Source of the DNA: Patescibacteria group bacterium
Lineage (GTDB): Bacteria > Patescibacteriota > CPR2 > UBA1875
Length of the DNA: 64,000 nucleotides
Assembly (NCBI GenBank): GCA_041737595.1
Contig: JBGSRK010000011.1
Location: 2,658-66,657, forward strand
Direction: 5' to 3'
Part shown: in pieces, positions 60,946 through 63,815 of the stretch
Numbering within the stretch: position 1 is the first letter of the stretch
Layout: the number at the start of each line of letters is the position of its first letter
Made by a program: the position numbers and the translations under genes
The notes under the pieces: model-generated
Told to the model about the DNA's origin: nothing
The model's input: the letters and a program-made list of their open reading frames with translations, nothing else
Databases searched by the model: none

Positions 60946-63815
60946 AAATATCTTTAAATTGGTTAAAAGAATATGTTGATACAAGTAACTTAACTCCTGA
61001 GCAGATTTCTGAAAAATTGACTCTTTCGGGGTCTGAGGTGGATTCTTTACACAAGCCTGTAAATTATAAAAATATTGTAGTAGGTGAAATAAAAGAAATA
61101 ATAAAACATCCAAACGCCGATAAACTCCAAATAACAAAAACCGATGTGGGTAAAAAAAATGGTGGCATTCTTCAAATAGTTTGTGGTGCACCAAATATTA
61201 AAGTTGGTCAGAAAATCCCTGTTGCTTTAGTTGGTGCCAAATTTGATGATTTTGAGATAAAAAAAGCAAAAATTAGAGATATTGAATCATTTGGAATGCT
61301 TTGTTCCGAAAAAGAACTTGGAATATCAGATGAACATTCTGGAATTATGATTTTAAACGAAAAAGCAACTGTCGGGCAAGATTTTTCAACTTATATTGGG
61401 GCTGATTATGTTTTTGATATAGATATCACTCCAAATCGAGGTGATTGTTTATCAGTTATTGGTATTGCAAGAGAACTTGCGGCAACATTAAATAAGAATG
61501 TTATTAATCTTAAATTCCCAAACGCAACAGTTAAATCTAAAAAAACAGTCAATGTGTTAGTTAAAGAAAAAGATATATGTCCTCGTTATATTTCTAAGGT
61601 AATAGAAGGGGTCAAACTAGGTCCTTCGCCGAAATGGATGCAAGAAAGACTTATTTTAGCTGGTGTGCGGCCAATAAATAATATAGTTGATGTTGCAAAT
61701 TATGTAATGCTTGAATGGGGACAACCACTACATACTTTTGATGGAGATAAAATCAATGGGGATATTATTGTAAGAAAAGCAAAAGAGGGTGAAAAGATAA
61801 TCACTCTTGATGGGCAAGAAAGAAAATTAATTTCAAAAGATATTATTATTTGTGATAGTAAAAAACCAATTGCTCTTGCAGGTGTTATGGGTGGTCTCAA
61901 CTCTGAAATAGATGATAAAACTAAAACAGTAGTACTTGAGGCAGCTGTTTTTGATCGAGTTATGATAAGAAAAACAGCTCAACGACTAAATCTTAGGTCA
62001 GAAGCATCAAATAGATTTGAAAAAGGTATTCCATTAAATTTACCAGAAATAGCAATTGAACGAGCAGCAAGTTTATTAACAGAAATCCCAGGTGGTCTTT
62101 CGGGACAAATGCCAGTGGTAAAACCTAAGGCAGGGAAAAATATTGATGTATTATCACAATGGTTATGGATTCAACATATTGGGATGAGGTTCTCACGTTT
62201 AAAACAAATTATTGGTATAAAAATTTCAGAAGAAAAAGTAATAACCATATTATCTTCTTTAGGGTTTGAAGTGGGAAAATTTGATTTTAAAAAAGAAGCA
62301 AGAAATCAAGTTGGAAAACCATATATTCTTGGTGCTAGTTACAAAACCTATGGGGACATGGCCTTTGATTGCTCATATTTGACTGATTATATATATTCAA
62401 AAATTGGTAAATTTATAGGTTATACTTCGTTGGCTCAATATGAATTAGGAACTTCAATAAAGGATAATGAATTATTACCAGGGGATATTTTATTTATAAA
62501 AGGGCAGATAGATAAATCTGTAACCGATCATTATTTTATCCCAGACGAAAAGACTGGCTATAAAAAAATATTACTAAAAAATAAAAAAGAAGTGGGGCAT
62601 AACGCAATTTATATTGGAGATGGCAGAATAATACATGCTAAGCATTTTGAATATAATTTAAAAACAAAAAAATGGGAGAAATTAAAAGAGGGGAAAGTGA
62701 TAGAAGAAGATGTTACTGTATTTACAAAAAATCCTGATTATCTTGGTGCCAAAAGATATATTACTCCAGGGGTTGATTATTTAGCCATTACAGTTCCTTG
62801 GTGGAGATTAGATATATTAACAGAAGAAGATATATTTGAAGAAATCGCAAGAATTTATGGTTATGACAACTTACCATCAACCCTACCTAGTGGCGAGCTC
62901 CCAATATTTGAAGAAAATAATAAAATAAAAATTTCTAATGACTTAAAATTAATTCTTTCTGGGATCGGTTTTTCGGAAGTCTATAATTATTCATTTGTAT
63001 CAAAAAAACAGATTGAGCTATTTGATGGTAATACTGATAATTCATACATTATTTCAAATCCAACAAATCCTGAACAAAATTATATGAGAACTTCATTGGC
63101 CCCAATACTAATAAATAATGCTGCCACAAACCAAGATAATTTTGATAATTTTAAGATATTTGAAATCGCTCCTGTATATAAAAAATTGAAAAATAATACA
63201 TCAGAAGAACCTTTGTTTTTAGGAATGATTATAAAATCAAATAAAAAAAATAATACTTCGGCCTTTTATGAAACAAAAGGAGCAATAGATATTCTATTTA
63301 ATAAAATAAATTTAGGTAAAGCAGAATATAAGGAAGACAAAATAGAGTATTTATCAGAAGGACAAATGGCTTTTATATATATAAATAATATTAAAGTAGG
63401 TCATATCGGGATGCTAAGTGACAAAATAAAACATGAATATAAGATTAAAACACCAATGGCACTTGCTGAAATTGAAATATCAAAATTATTACCACTCTAT
63501 GGCGAAATTATTCAATATAAAGAAATATCAAAATTTCCTTTTATTGTCCGTGATATCAATATATTATTCCCCTTAACAGTAAGCGCTAAAACAATTACCC
63601 AAGAATTCTCGAAATTCCAAATTGATAAGCTTATTTCTATTGAACTTGTAGATATATTTGAGGGAGGTAGCTTGCCACCCGATAAGAAAAGTGTCACAAT
63701 TAGATTAACTTTTGGTTTGAAAGATAAAACTCTTAAAGAAGAGGAAATCGTAGAAAGCCTGAGTTTAATTACAAAAAAATTGATAAACAAAACCGGTGGT
63801 GAGATTCGTAGTTAG
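60942..63815 (+). CDS. pheT: phenylalanyl-tRNA synthetase beta subunit carrying an inserted NlpC/P60-like domain within B5
   Basis: tRNA-binding N-domain, B3/4, B5 ([17 protein letters not shown] ... [30 protein letters not shown]), B6/7 and the C-terminal FDX-ACB-like domain. About 166 aa are inserted between the B5 halves, carrying [17 protein letters not shown] and [15 protein letters not shown]. Confidence 0.9.
   Translation: [957 protein letters not shown]

What the first reader, a model, noticed from the sequence alone, without database searches (positions are those of the whole stretch)
62276..62775. NlpC/P60 papain-like peptidase domain inserted inside the B5 domain of PheT
The PheT reading frame is continuous, but about 166 residues are inserted between the two halves of the conserved B5 domain (…[17 protein letters not shown] | insert | [31 protein letters not shown]…). 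The insert has the NlpC/P60 hallmarks in the correct order and spacing: Cys motif [21 protein letters not shown], and His motif [15 protein letters not shown]. An apparently intact cell-wall-hydrolase-type catalytic domain embedded in an essential aminoacyl-tRNA synthetase subunit is unusual. It could be a moonlighting domain, a lineage-specific fusion, or a catalytically repurposed fold. It is not an intein: there is no Cys/Ser at an N-terminal splice junction and no terminal HN followed by a nucleophile.
Basis: partly seen in the sequence, partly recalled or inferred. Interest (0 to 1): 0.7.

Follow-up and report, generated by a model that had tools for sequence, protein, structure and literature searches.

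The report
Cell-wall peptidase domain nested in PheRS beta
The beta subunit of phenylalanyl-tRNA synthetase in this Patescibacteria (CPR) genome carries a complete cell-wall-type cysteine peptidase domain with all catalytic residues present, nested inside its small B5 domain; the arrangement is conserved across many CPR lineages and I found no paper describing it.

Summary
pheT (window 60942-63815, 957 aa) is one uninterrupted frame, and about 165 residues replace the 4-9-residue turn of the B5 beta-hairpin. The insert passes Pfam NlpC/P60 (52 bits against a cut-off of 23). It folds with pLDDT 95 into the canonical DL-endopeptidase fold.

It is not an artefact. I collected 96 long and 47 short full-length PheT proteins with the same insertion, from NCBI, JGI, ENA and Logan assemblies. 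All named sources are Patescibacteria, Parcubacteria or Terrybacteria.

In the 114 of these scored per residue (96 long, 18 short), the catalytic Cys and His, the Asp of the Asp-Cys-Ser motif and the essential Tyr never change. Among 65 long-class proteins the insert is more conserved than most PheT domains and diverges in step with the backbone (r = 0.73). PheRS itself looks intact, including the editing residues.

Positions that separate insert-bearing from insert-less relatives cluster in one B5 strand (L404, W407, I408, W409, Q411, H412), which suggests a rigid co-evolved interface. Two free-standing genes encode only B5 plus NlpC/P60, so the module can exist without PheRS.

My best reading, which is inferred, is a cytoplasmic gamma-D-glutamyl amidase acting on peptidoglycan peptides, with PheRS as scaffold. 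Coupling to aminoacylation is not excluded.

The parts
59711..60733 (+). pheS (PheRS alpha subunit, 340 aa), directly upstream of pheT
   Evidence: ORF. The same position in related loci is called Phe_tRNA-synt_N + tRNA-synt_2d.
60942..63815 (+). pheT, PheRS beta subunit, 957 aa, one continuous frame carrying the nested domain
   Evidence: Pfam domains. TIGR00472 scores 786 bits. 100% identical to P0001.
61074..61379 (+). B2 / tRNA_bind domain (aa 45-146)
   Evidence: PF01588, 61 bits. This domain is absent from the short Parcubacteria class, which nevertheless carries the same insertion.
61578..62090 (+). B3/4 editing domain (aa 213-383). The equivalents of E. coli H265, G318, E334 and A356 are H264, G317/G318, E333 and A355.
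   Evidence: PF03483, 240.8 bits. Alignment to E. coli PheT 3pco_B. H264, G317 and E333 are invariant and G318 nearly invariant in 96 sequences. A355 is read from the alignment only.
62151..62183 (+). B5 strand aa 404-414 ([11 protein letters not shown]). This is the set of positions that distinguishes insert-bearing from insert-less PheT; it is inferred to be the docking surface for the nested domain.
   Evidence: W409 is 97% vs 0%, W407 95% vs 0%, G414 100% vs 6%, L404 94% vs 3%, Q411 89% vs 3%, H412 78% vs 0%. Of the 18 most discriminating backbone positions, 9 lie in B5-N.
62142..62279 (+). B5 domain, N-terminal half (aa 401-446), ending in strand ...LGFEV
   Evidence: Pfam B5 is split into two stretches. 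AF2 secondary structure: E401-404, E411-416, H417-424, H430-439, E443-446.
62280..62759 (+). Nested NlpC/P60 (MEROPS C40) cysteine peptidase domain, aa 447-606
   Evidence: PF00877, 52 bits for the insert alone. PDB sequence hits 8er5, 7cfl and others. AF2 pLDDT 95.1, pTM 0.90. Foldseek top matches are DL-endopeptidases. Mean pairwise identity 0.60 among 65 homologues.
62322..62324 (+). Tyr461 of GKPY, the equivalent of BcYkfC Tyr226 (the conserved Tyr described as believed essential for catalysis)
   Evidence: Y in 113 of 114 insert-bearing PheT proteins. Role taken from PMC2954226.
62367..62375 (+). Asp476-Cys477-Ser478: the catalytic cysteine with the two flanking gamma-D-Glu-binding residues
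   Evidence: Cys and Asp are 114 of 114 and Ser is 109 of 114. The codon tgc at 62370-62372 is visible.
62598..62600 (+). Catalytic His553 (VGH motif)
   Evidence: 114 of 114. The codon cat is visible.
62634..62636 (+). Third triad residue His565 (IIHA)
   Evidence: H in 84 of 114; otherwise D, E, N or Q, with T in 5.
62772..62864 (+). B5 domain, C-terminal half (aa 611-641), [10 protein letters not shown]...EEIARIYGY
   Evidence: Pfam B5 profile positions 37-67. P619, R622, D624, D630, E633, E634 and G640 are invariant.
62871..63476 (+). Catalytic-like module B6/B7 (aa 644-845)
   Evidence: PF17759, 138 bits.
63528..63809 (+). B8 / FDX-ACB anticodon-binding domain (aa 863-956)
   Evidence: PF03147, 71 bits.

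Best explanation
SHOWN. The window's pheT encodes a complete bacterial PheRS beta subunit. The tip of its B5 beta-hairpin carries a nested domain of about 160 aa. That domain is a non-permuted NlpC/P60 (C40) cysteine peptidase with a full Cys477-His553-His565 triad. It also has the Tyr461 / Asp476 / Ser478 / small-residue-496 signature that in characterised enzymes forms the gamma-D-glutamate (S1) pocket.

The architecture is old and mostly vertically inherited within Patescibacteria. It is more conserved than most of PheT. It occurs on two different PheT backbones: long, with the B2 domain, and short, the Parcubacteria type without B2. PheRS's own hallmarks are kept.

INFERRED.
1. The domain is an active amidase. 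It is rigidly docked on B5 through a co-evolved hydrophobic strand (L404, W407, I408, W409, Q411, H412). B5 may therefore act as its accessory domain, much as SH3b does in YkfC.
2. It has no signal peptide and sits inside a cytoplasmic enzyme, so it would work in the cytoplasm. The likely bond is gamma-D-Glu-(diamino acid) in peptidoglycan-derived peptides or precursors: turnover, recycling, or salvage of scavenged muropeptides in a cell with minimal biosynthesis.
3. PheRS would serve mainly as a stable, constitutively expressed scaffold rather than as a catalytic partner.
For: Fold and family.

Catalytic and S1 residues, scored in 114 full-length homologues (96 long, 18 short): Cys, His and Asp 114/114; Tyr 113/114; Ser 109/114; position 496 is S, A, T or C in 113/114; position 463 is hydrophobic. 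The roles of these residues come from the BcYkfC product complex (PMC2954226).

Purifying selection: insert identity is 0.60, against 0.36-0.37 for CLM and FDX and 0.55 for B1-B2.

Co-divergence with the backbone: r = 0.73 over 2080 pairs, and the insert is always less diverged than the backbone.

PheRS intact: TIGR00472 scores 786 bits. The editing-site equivalents H264, G317 and E333 and the B5 acidic residues are invariant; A355 aligns with E. coli A356. pheS is adjacent.

Docking: the discriminating positions cluster in B5 strand 404-414. The insert has pLDDT 90-96 in the full-length model.

Autonomy of the module: free-standing B5+NlpC/P60 genes P0213 and P0264, with the triad intact, lie away from pheS/pheT and branch among the short-class inserts.

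The lineage has peptidoglycan: an L,D-transpeptidase with PG_binding_4 follows pheT in relatives, and a PG_binding_1 protein lies in the window.

Precedent: a cytoplasmic NlpC/P60 recycles peptidoglycan peptides in Chlamydia, which also has a reduced genome (PMC9928106).
Against: - No activity or substrate was tested; the function rests on residue conservation.
- The long class, which includes this window, replaces the highly conserved Arg (BcYkfC Arg255) with His or Tyr and has DCS-Tyr instead of DCS-Gly/Ser. The two changes co-vary. The active-site hydrogen-bond network is therefore altered and specificity may have shifted.
- The YkfC-type determinant for a free N-terminal L-Ala (Asp256 plus the SH3b Tyr) is absent, so the domain is not a simple copy of the known cytoplasmic recycling enzyme.
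- Nothing explains why PheT in particular is the host.
- B5 contacts the aminoacylation domain of the alpha subunit (beta1s4 in PMC8136816, with beta1s4 = B5 being my own mapping). Proximity to the synthetic site is therefore plausible, and functional coupling cannot be dismissed.
- Close, syntenic relatives do without the insert, so it is dispensable in some genomes.
Confidence: 0.45

Rival explanations
1. The domain is functionally coupled to aminoacylation. The Cys-His site would act on a PheRS product: hydrolysing a mis-activated aminoacyl-adenylate or mis-acylated, D-aminoacyl or N-blocked aminoacyl-tRNA. Alternatively it would take Phe as a thioester and pass it to an acceptor amine, as LRAT-type relatives of this superfamily do with acyl groups.
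For: The host is always PheT and the site is always the B5 hairpin, on two different backbones. B5 (beta1s4 by my mapping) contacts the alpha aminoacylation domain (PMC8136816). The long class has a derived active site, Arg to His/Tyr plus Gly/Ser to Tyr, that could reflect a new substrate. A thioester acyl-enzyme is the normal intermediate of this superfamily (established knowledge).
Against: Free-standing B5+NlpC/P60 genes exist without any PheRS part. The canonical gamma-D-Glu pocket residues are kept. The B3/4 editing site is intact, so no replacement is needed. The LRAT model scores below threshold (13-15 bits against 24.3). Syntenic relatives lack the insert. No distance or orientation could be measured, because the tool returns no coordinates.
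Confidence: 0.12
2. It is an active amidase, but its substrate is not peptidoglycan. Candidates are another gamma-glutamyl or small-molecule amide, such as poly-gamma-glutamate, a gamma-glutamyl metabolite or cofactor tail, or a lipid or peptide conjugate.
For: The altered Arg255-equivalent and the DCS-Tyr motif in the long class. The cytoplasmic location. A PGA_cap (CapA-like) gene lies at window 39770-41176. Some NlpC/P60 members hydrolyse poly-gamma-glutamate (my own knowledge, not checked here).
Against: All the closest sequence and structure matches are peptidoglycan DL-endopeptidases. The S1 signature associated with X-L-Ala-gamma-D-Glu is conserved. The CapA-like gene is 20 kb away, and its linkage to the insert was not tested.
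Confidence: 0.15
3. It is a non-catalytic role: a structural brace, or a ligand-binding sensor for muropeptides that tunes PheRS and so links translation to cell-wall status.
For: The tight co-evolved interface with B5. Inactive NlpC/P60 binding proteins exist: RipD is annotated as an NlpC/P60 family peptidoglycan-binding protein, and the insert gives a weak hit to it.
Against: Cys477 and His553 are invariant in 114 of 114 sequences, and the third residue is nearly always a competent polar residue. Binding-only relatives typically lose these residues. Conservation extends to the free-standing modules.
Confidence: 0.1
4. It is a self-processing element: the papain-like domain cuts the PheT chain, either splitting it or excising itself.
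For: Only the general fact that papain-like domains can process polyproteins (my own knowledge).
Against: [quoted passage not shown] No intein-like junctions are present. The two halves of B5 form a single hairpin that would have to stay together.
Confidence: 0.03
5. It is an assembly or annotation artefact, or a recent junk insertion that is decaying.
For: None found.
Against: The frame is continuous. The GC content matches the rest of the gene. There are 143 full-length homologues from four data sources. The insert is more conserved than most of the host protein.
Confidence: 0.01

Closest known systems
Secreted NlpC/P60 (MEROPS C40) peptidoglycan DL-endopeptidases: C. difficile Acd24020 (7cfl), B. 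subtilis LytE and CwlO, E. coli MepS/Spr, E. faecium SagA, M. tuberculosis RipA/RipB
   Same: Same fold (Foldseek E down to 1.6e-08, target-normalised TM 0.7-0.82). Same motif order: GxPYxxG, DCS, PGD-LF, HxxIY-G, xHA, G-RR. Same Cys-His-His triad and the same gamma-D-Glu pocket residues.
   Different: Those enzymes are exported and carry wall-targeting domains (LysM, SH3b, coiled coil). This one has no signal peptide and is nested inside a cytoplasmic tRNA synthetase. In the long class Arg255 is replaced by His/Tyr and DCS-Gly by DCS-Tyr. Two extra beta-hairpins are present (aa 530-544 and 562-590).
Cytoplasmic peptidoglycan-peptide recycling NlpC/P60 enzymes: YkfC / dipeptidyl-peptidase VI, including Chlamydia trachomatis YkfC
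   Same: An NlpC/P60 domain working inside the cell on peptidoglycan-derived peptides, and in the Chlamydia case in a reduced-genome bacterium (PMC2954226, PMC9928106). An accessory domain (SH3b there, possibly B5 here) packs against the catalytic domain.
   Different: The YkfC subfamily is defined by Asp256 plus the SH3b Tyr118, which bind the free L-Ala amine. Here position 495 is Thr (Val/Ile/Met in the short class) and there is no SH3b. The substrate would therefore more likely be N-substituted.
Canonical bacterial PheRS beta subunit (E. coli 3pco, T. thermophilus 1pys/2iy5, M. tuberculosis 7k9m)
   Same: Every domain from B1 to B8 is present. Editing residues and B5 acidic residues are conserved, and the gene pairs with pheS.
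   Different: No solved or described PheRS has a catalytic domain inside B5. Their hairpin turn is 4-9 residues long.
Bifunctional enzymes that pair a papain-like amidase with a ligase, e.g. glutathionylspermidine synthetase/amidase (CHAP domain); cited from my own knowledge
   Same: A Cys-His amidase of the same superfamily sits in one polypeptide with an ATP-dependent ligase.
   Different: That case is an end-to-end fusion in which the amidase reverses the ligase's own product. Here the domain is nested, and no chemical link to Phe-tRNA formation is shown.

Membership tests
NlpC/P60 (Pfam PF00877, MEROPS C40) | Profile score above the curated threshold | tested here: met
   45.8 bits in the whole protein and 52.1 bits for the insert, against a cut-off of 23.
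NlpC/P60 (Pfam PF00877, MEROPS C40) | Papain-like alpha+beta fold | tested here: met
   AF2 pLDDT 95.1, pTM 0.90. 56 PDB matches at E <= 0.001; every one of the 50 listed is an NlpC/P60 domain.
NlpC/P60 (Pfam PF00877, MEROPS C40) | Non-permuted catalytic Cys ... His ... polar third residue | tested here: met
   C477, H553, H565. Cys and His are 114/114; the third residue is H, D, E, N or Q in 109/114.
NlpC/P60 (Pfam PF00877, MEROPS C40) | Conserved Tyr (BcYkfC Tyr226), described as believed essential for catalysis | tested here: met
   Y461, 113/114. Role from PMC2954226.
NlpC/P60 (Pfam PF00877, MEROPS C40) | gamma-D-Glu (S1) signature: Asp and Ser flanking the Cys, a small residue at position 257, a hydrophobic residue at position 228 | tested here: met
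   D476 114/114; S478 109/114; position 496 is S, A, T or C in 113/114; position 463 is F, W, Y or L.
NlpC/P60 (Pfam PF00877, MEROPS C40) | Highly conserved Arg (BcYkfC Arg255) in the active-site hydrogen-bond network | tested here: not met
   Y494 in the window. The long class has H 56, Y 31, F 5 and R 4. The short class keeps R in 17/18. This is conserved but not strictly defining, so family membership stands with a derived active site.
NlpC/P60 (Pfam PF00877, MEROPS C40) | Hydrolysis of the gamma-D-Glu-diamino acid bond | not testable with these tools
   Needs an enzyme assay.
Bacterial PheRS beta subunit (TIGR00472 pheT_bact) | Equivalog model above the curated cut-off, with the full domain set B1-B8 | tested here: met
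   786 bits against 402.65. tRNA_bind, B3_4, B5, CLM and FDX-ACB are all above their Pfam thresholds.
Bacterial PheRS beta subunit (TIGR00472 pheT_bact) | B3/4 editing-site residues (E. coli H265, G318, E334, A356; residue list from my own knowledge of the PheRS editing literature) | tested here: met
   The aligned residues are H264, G317/G318, E333 and A355. H264, G317 and E333 are invariant and G318 nearly invariant in 96 sequences. A355 rests on the alignment only.
Bacterial PheRS beta subunit (TIGR00472 pheT_bact) | Paired with pheS | tested here: met
   pheS lies at 59711-60733. The same order is seen in all related loci.
Intein | Cys/Ser/Thr at the N-junction, His-Asn plus a nucleophile at the C-junction, Hint fold | tested here: not met
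   The junctions are ...FEV|GKFDF... and ...[12 protein letters not shown]... No Hint or intein family appears in Pfam or NCBIfam.
YkfC / DPP VI subfamily | Asp256 in the catalytic domain plus the SH3b Tyr118, which bind the free L-Ala amine | tested here: not met
   Position 495 is Thr (long class) or V/I/M (short class). No SH3b domain is present.
LRAT / YaeF permuted papain-like families | Circular permutation (His before Cys); family profile above threshold | tested here: not met
   Cys477 precedes His553. LRAT scores 13.1-15.4 bits against a cut-off of 24.3.

The most novel reading that the evidence does not exclude
The nested peptidase is not a passenger but a new kind of catalytic module for an aminoacyl-tRNA synthetase. 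Held on B5 next to the alpha-subunit active site, its Cys-His site would act on a product of PheRS: proofreading an aminoacyl-adenylate or aminoacyl-tRNA, or transferring Phe through a thioester to an acceptor such as a cell-wall peptide. Alternatively, it would couple peptidoglycan-fragment turnover directly to the rate of Phe-tRNA synthesis.
Probability: 0.12. Interest if true: 0.9.

Novelty: new variant of a known kind. Interest (0 to 1): 0.62.

Why it matters
Aminoacyl-tRNA synthetases are among the most thoroughly studied enzymes. Their added domains usually bind RNA, edit mis-charged tRNA or mediate signalling. A cell-wall-type cysteine peptidase with every catalytic residue conserved, nested inside an essential synthetase, is not among the described add-ons. 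It is kept under stronger constraint than much of the synthetase, across deep branches of Patescibacteria.

If it recycles or salvages peptidoglycan peptides, it shows how ultra-small, host-dependent bacteria pack metabolic functions into housekeeping proteins. It would also give a directly testable handle on cell-wall turnover in a phylum that is almost uncultured. If instead it acts on PheRS products, it would be a new class of synthetase-linked chemistry.

In practical terms, current annotation is inconsistent. The same architecture is named 'phenylalanine--tRNA ligase subunit beta', 'hypothetical protein', 'C40 family peptidase' or 'beta subunit-related protein'. The presence or absence of the insert among syntenic relatives offers a natural experiment.

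Tried and rejected
- Searching the 5.8-billion-protein index with the insert alone found nothing. This was a false negative of the word index: the full-length query then found a 100% identical protein and 65 other insert-bearing hits.
An alignment query would have reached further.
- The look-up of encoding contigs found no record for P0001, so the window's own assembly name is unknown.
- Replacement of a decayed editing site is rejected, because the B3/4 residues are conserved.
- A functional link to the L,D-transpeptidase gene downstream of pheT is rejected as insert-specific. The same gene order occurs in insert-less relatives, and no standalone NlpC/P60 sits next to their pheT.
- Recent horizontal acquisition is rejected. 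GC content equals the rest of the gene and the insert co-diverges with the backbone.
- Whether the long-class and short-class inserts share one origin stayed inconclusive. Joint monophyly was recovered in 19 of 50 bootstraps, and long-short distance (1.27) is about the same as long-to-unrelated distance (1.31).
- The afdb50 fold library was not available, so there is no UniProt-based taxonomy.
- The structure tool returns no coordinates. The distance from Cys477 to the aminoacylation and editing sites, and the predicted B5-insert contacts, could not be measured.
- Seven literature searches found no paper that links NlpC/P60 with PheT. The one paper flagged for both topics (PMC10318531) mentions tRNA synthetase only in its reference list.
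- There is no C39_2 homologue and no second NlpC/P60 anywhere in the 64-kb window.

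
Full report
**What is in the sequence**

The window carries pheS (59711-60733), then a 70-codon hydrophobic ORF, then one uninterrupted 957-codon ORF at 60942-63815. The large ORF is a bacterial PheRS beta subunit. TIGR00472 scores 786 bits against a cut-off of 402.65. 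Pfam finds tRNA_bind, B3_4, B5, the catalytic-like module and FDX-ACB.

Both the TIGR00472 and the B5 matches are split in two. Between the halves, Pfam finds NLPC_P60 above its threshold: 45.8 bits in the whole protein and 52.1 bits for the excised segment, against a cut-off of 23. NCBIfam gives sub-threshold matches to RipC, p60, RipB and RipA.

**Exact placement**

In an alignment of the 120 best PheT homologues, proteins without the domain have 4-9 residues where this protein has 168. Against E. coli PheT (3pco, 7n8y) the break falls between about residues 438 and 437-440. This is the turn between '...LGCEV' and 'W.AVAPSWRFD'.

The AlphaFold2 model of the whole protein has mean pLDDT 88.8, with 90-96 across the insert. 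It has strand 443-446, then the nested domain, then strand 613-618. The domain therefore sits on the tip of the B5 beta-hairpin.

**What the nested domain is**

Modelled alone it gives pLDDT 95.1 and pTM 0.90. Foldseek against the PDB returns 56 matches at E <= 0.001, and all 50 listed are NlpC/P60 domains. They are led by peptidoglycan DL-endopeptidases: Acd24020, Trichomonas NlpC1/2, the diffocin hydrolase, MepS, LytE, CwlO, SagA and RipA/B. Target-normalised TM reaches 0.82. Sequence search of the PDB agrees.

The order is Cys477 (FDCSY), then His553 (VGH), then His565 (IIHA). This is the non-permuted arrangement. LRAT is below threshold and there is no CHAP, Hint or intein hit.

**It is real, widespread and constrained**

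- The exact protein is in the public collection. Of the 120 best hits, 66 carry PF00877 at the same place, at 35-79% identity. They come from NCBI, JGI, ENA and Logan assemblies, and those that carry a name are 'Patescibacteria group bacterium'.
- An exhaustive profile search of 1.84 billion cluster representatives found that 55 of the best 150 matches are PheT-like proteins.
- These include a second class of 770-880 residues that lacks the B2/tRNA_bind domain but has the same split B5 with NlpC/P60. Named members of this class come from Parcubacteria and Terrybacteria. They are annotated variously as PheT, 'hypothetical protein', 'PheT-related protein' or 'C40 family peptidase'.
- In all I collected 96 long and 47 short full-length examples.
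- Among 65 long-class proteins, mean pairwise identity of the insert is 0.60. The comparison values are 0.66 for B3/4, 0.55 for B1-B2 and 0.36-0.37 for the CLM and anticodon-binding domains.
- Insert and backbone distances correlate (r = 0.73 over 2080 pairs), and the insert is always the less diverged of the two.
- GC content is the same as in the rest of the gene.

Together this excludes an assembly artefact and a recent insertion. It shows long vertical co-inheritance under purifying selection.

**Active-site audit**

I used the residue roles established for BcYkfC with bound L-Ala-gamma-D-Glu (PMC2954226) and scored 114 full-length insert-bearing PheT proteins, 96 long and 18 short.

| Residue (BcYkfC equivalent) | Conservation |
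|---|---|
| Cys477 (catalytic) | 114/114 |
| His553 (catalytic) | 114/114 |
| Asp476 (Asp237) | 114/114 |
| Tyr461 (Tyr226) | 113/114 |
| Ser478 (Ser239) | 109/114 |
| Position 496 (Ser257) | small (S/A/T/C) in 113/114 |
| Position 463 (Trp228) | hydrophobic (mainly F, W, Y, L) |
| Third triad residue | His in 84; D/E/N/Q in 25; Thr in 5 |

The S1 pocket associated with gamma-D-glutamate is thus preserved.

Two departures mark the long class, which includes this window.
- The highly conserved Arg255 equivalent is His or Tyr (Y494 here), within G-(H/Y)-T instead of P-R-T.
- The residue after Cys-Ser is Tyr (DCSY) instead of Gly or Ser.

These two changes co-vary. The four long-class sequences that keep P-R lack the Tyr, and the short class keeps P-R in 17 of 18. 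The YkfC-specific Asp256 is absent and there is no SH3b domain.

**PheRS looks fully functional**

The equivalents of the E. coli editing residues H265, G318, E334 and A356 are H264, G317/G318, E333 and A355. H264, G317 and E333 are invariant across the 96-sequence alignment, and G318 is nearly invariant. So are the acidic and basic residues of the B5 C-terminal half: R622, D624, D630, E633 and E634. The idea that the peptidase replaces a lost editing site is therefore rejected.

**The domain is integrated with B5, not merely tethered**

I compared 65 insert-bearing with 31 insert-less relatives. Backbone positions that separate the two groups are concentrated in B5: 9 of the top 18 lie in the 44-residue N-half and none lie in B2 or the CLM.

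| Position | With insert | Without insert |
|---|---|---|
| W409 | 97% | 0% |
| W407 | 95% | 0% |
| G414 | 100% | 6% |
| L404 | 94% | 3% |
| Q411 | 89% | 3% |
| H412 | 78% | 0% |

Insert-less proteins have Lys, Glu or Asp at these positions. I infer that this strand is buried against the nested domain. This could not be checked because no coordinates are returned. By analogy with the SH3b domain of YkfC, which contributes to the active site, B5 may serve as an accessory domain.

**Free-standing modules**

Two proteins in the profile search, P0213 (219 aa) and P0264 (199 aa), consist only of B5 N-half, NlpC/P60 and B5 C-half. Both have DCS, the His and the xHA motif intact.

P0213 aligns to residues 305-494 of the short-class PheT P0268 at 34% identity. 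Both branch among the short-class inserts.

They are independent genes, not next to pheS or pheT, and each is followed by a Peptidase_C39_2 gene. In L012 the module lies just upstream of gyrB, a position pheT occupies in other Patescibacteria loci. The composite module can therefore exist, and presumably work, without the synthetase. This weighs against obligatory coupling to aminoacylation.

**Gain and loss**

- A rough neighbour-joining tree of the backbone places insert-bearing proteins in at least four groups interleaved with insert-less ones.
- Insert-less relatives share the same gene order: RmuC, small membrane ORFs, pheS, small ORF, pheT, L,D-transpeptidase, DUF8128/TrwB-like ATPase.
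- The adjacency to the transpeptidase is therefore lineage synteny and not an insert-specific link. The insert is dispensable in some close relatives.
- Long-class inserts are monophyletic (50 of 50 bootstraps).
- Whether long and short classes share one origin is unresolved: joint monophyly in 19 of 50 bootstraps, and long-short distance similar to long-unrelated distance. The identical insertion site argues for one origin or a structural hot spot.

**How it most likely works**

Shown:
- A complete NlpC/P60 catalytic apparatus with a gamma-D-Glu-type pocket.
- Conservation across deep branches.
- No export signal, and residence inside a cytoplasmic enzyme.
- An intact host enzyme.
- A lineage that has peptidoglycan, judged from the YkuD transpeptidase with PG_binding_4 next door in relatives and a PG_binding_1 protein in the window.

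Inferred: it is a cytoplasmic gamma-D-glutamyl-(diamino acid) amidase acting on peptidoglycan-derived peptides or precursors, used for turnover or salvage. PheRS provides a stable, constitutively made scaffold, and B5 acts as an accessory domain. Chlamydia offers a precedent for a cytoplasmic NlpC/P60 that recycles peptidoglycan peptides in a reduced genome (PMC9928106). I put this at about 0.45.

Main rivals:
- A non-peptidoglycan amide substrate (0.15). The altered Arg/Tyr pair leaves room for this.
- Coupling to PheRS chemistry (0.12).
- A non-catalytic sensor or brace (0.10).

Coupling to PheRS chemistry is the most interesting reading. The small alpha/beta subdomain that precedes the CLM contacts the alpha aminoacylation domain through protein contacts and a conserved Mg ion (beta1s4 in PMC8136816). 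I equate this subdomain with B5. The nested active site may therefore lie near the synthetic site. The free-standing modules and the canonical S1 pocket argue against this reading.

**Comparison with what is known**

- By every sequence and fold criterion except the Arg255 equivalent, the insert is a member of NlpC/P60 (C40).
- The host is a member of bacterial PheT.
- It is not an intein, not YkfC-type, not LRAT or permuted, and not CHAP.

What is not described, in any of the seven literature searches I ran, is this nested architecture or its distribution. Databases hold the proteins and their automatic Pfam hits, but there is no curated family for the architecture, and the names given are inconsistent.

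I rate it a new variant of a known kind. The parts are known; the conserved and structurally integrated combination in an essential synthetase is previously unremarked.

**Limits**

- There is no biochemical evidence.
- There are no coordinates for geometry.
- The trees are rough neighbour-joining trees.
- Taxonomy rests on the few names that the sources supply.
- The window's own assembly could not be identified.

Noticed in passing
L012:846-1505 (P0213) and L013:6001-6600 (P0264): These are free-standing 199-219 aa genes that encode only B5 N-half + NlpC/P60 + B5 C-half, with catalytic residues intact. Each is followed by a Peptidase_C39_2 gene. In L012 the pair sits just upstream of gyrB, where pheT lies in other Patescibacteria loci. 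They may be a retained remnant or a partial duplicate of a short-class pheT.
   Followed up: partly
window 60733-60945 (+): A 70-codon hydrophobic ORF fills the gap between pheS and pheT and overlaps both by a few bases. Relatives have one or two unrelated-looking hydrophobic ORFs of 95-166 aa at the same spot (L002, L003, L005, L009-L011). No Pfam hit.
   Followed up: partly
window 58856-59335 and 59337-59711 (+): Two small multi-pass membrane ORFs (159 and 124 aa, no Pfam hit) lie directly upstream of pheS. They are conserved in sequence and position in L001-L003 (the 'MNWRN(F/Y)TRGL...' family).
   Followed up: no
window 63809-64000 (+), frame 3: An open frame that runs off the window end encodes a Lys-rich segment. 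It resembles the N-terminus of the L,D-transpeptidase (PG_binding_4 + YkuD) that follows pheT in L001-L003 and L008-L011. The same gene probably follows here.
   Followed up: partly
window 39770-41176 (+): A PGA_cap (CapA-like, poly-gamma-glutamate capsule synthesis family) protein, 225 bits. This is of possible interest because some NlpC/P60 enzymes act on gamma-glutamyl polymers. Linkage to the insert was not tested.
   Followed up: no
window 2952-3371 (-), 35476-35862 (-), 8031-8104 (+): RNase P RNA class A (219.7 bits), tmRNA (126.7 bits) and one tRNA. These are ordinary housekeeping RNAs.
   Followed up: no
window 41307-43571 (-) and 49807-51138 (+): Large ORFs (754 and 443 aa) with no Pfam match at E <= 1e-5.
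   Followed up: no
window 38048-39736 (+), 43670-46582 (+), 47010-48620 (+), 53426-55927 (+), 56928-57962 (+): ArgRS, a UvrD/PD-(D/E)XK helicase-nuclease, CTP synthase, a ClpB-like AAA+ protein and RmuC. The order RmuC ... pheS-pheT is conserved across the related loci.
   Followed up: partly
P0133 (1183 aa) and other multi-stretch hits: Proteins with up to nine tandem NlpC/P60 domains (PF00877 at 707 bits in nine stretches) appeared among the best profile hits. They are unrelated to PheT.
   Followed up: no
P0196 (162 aa fragment): A PheT fragment whose nested domain has 'YTCGAL' in place of 'FDCSYL'. The Cys is kept but the flanking Asp and Ser are lost. It is a divergent variant of the insert.
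   Followed up: no
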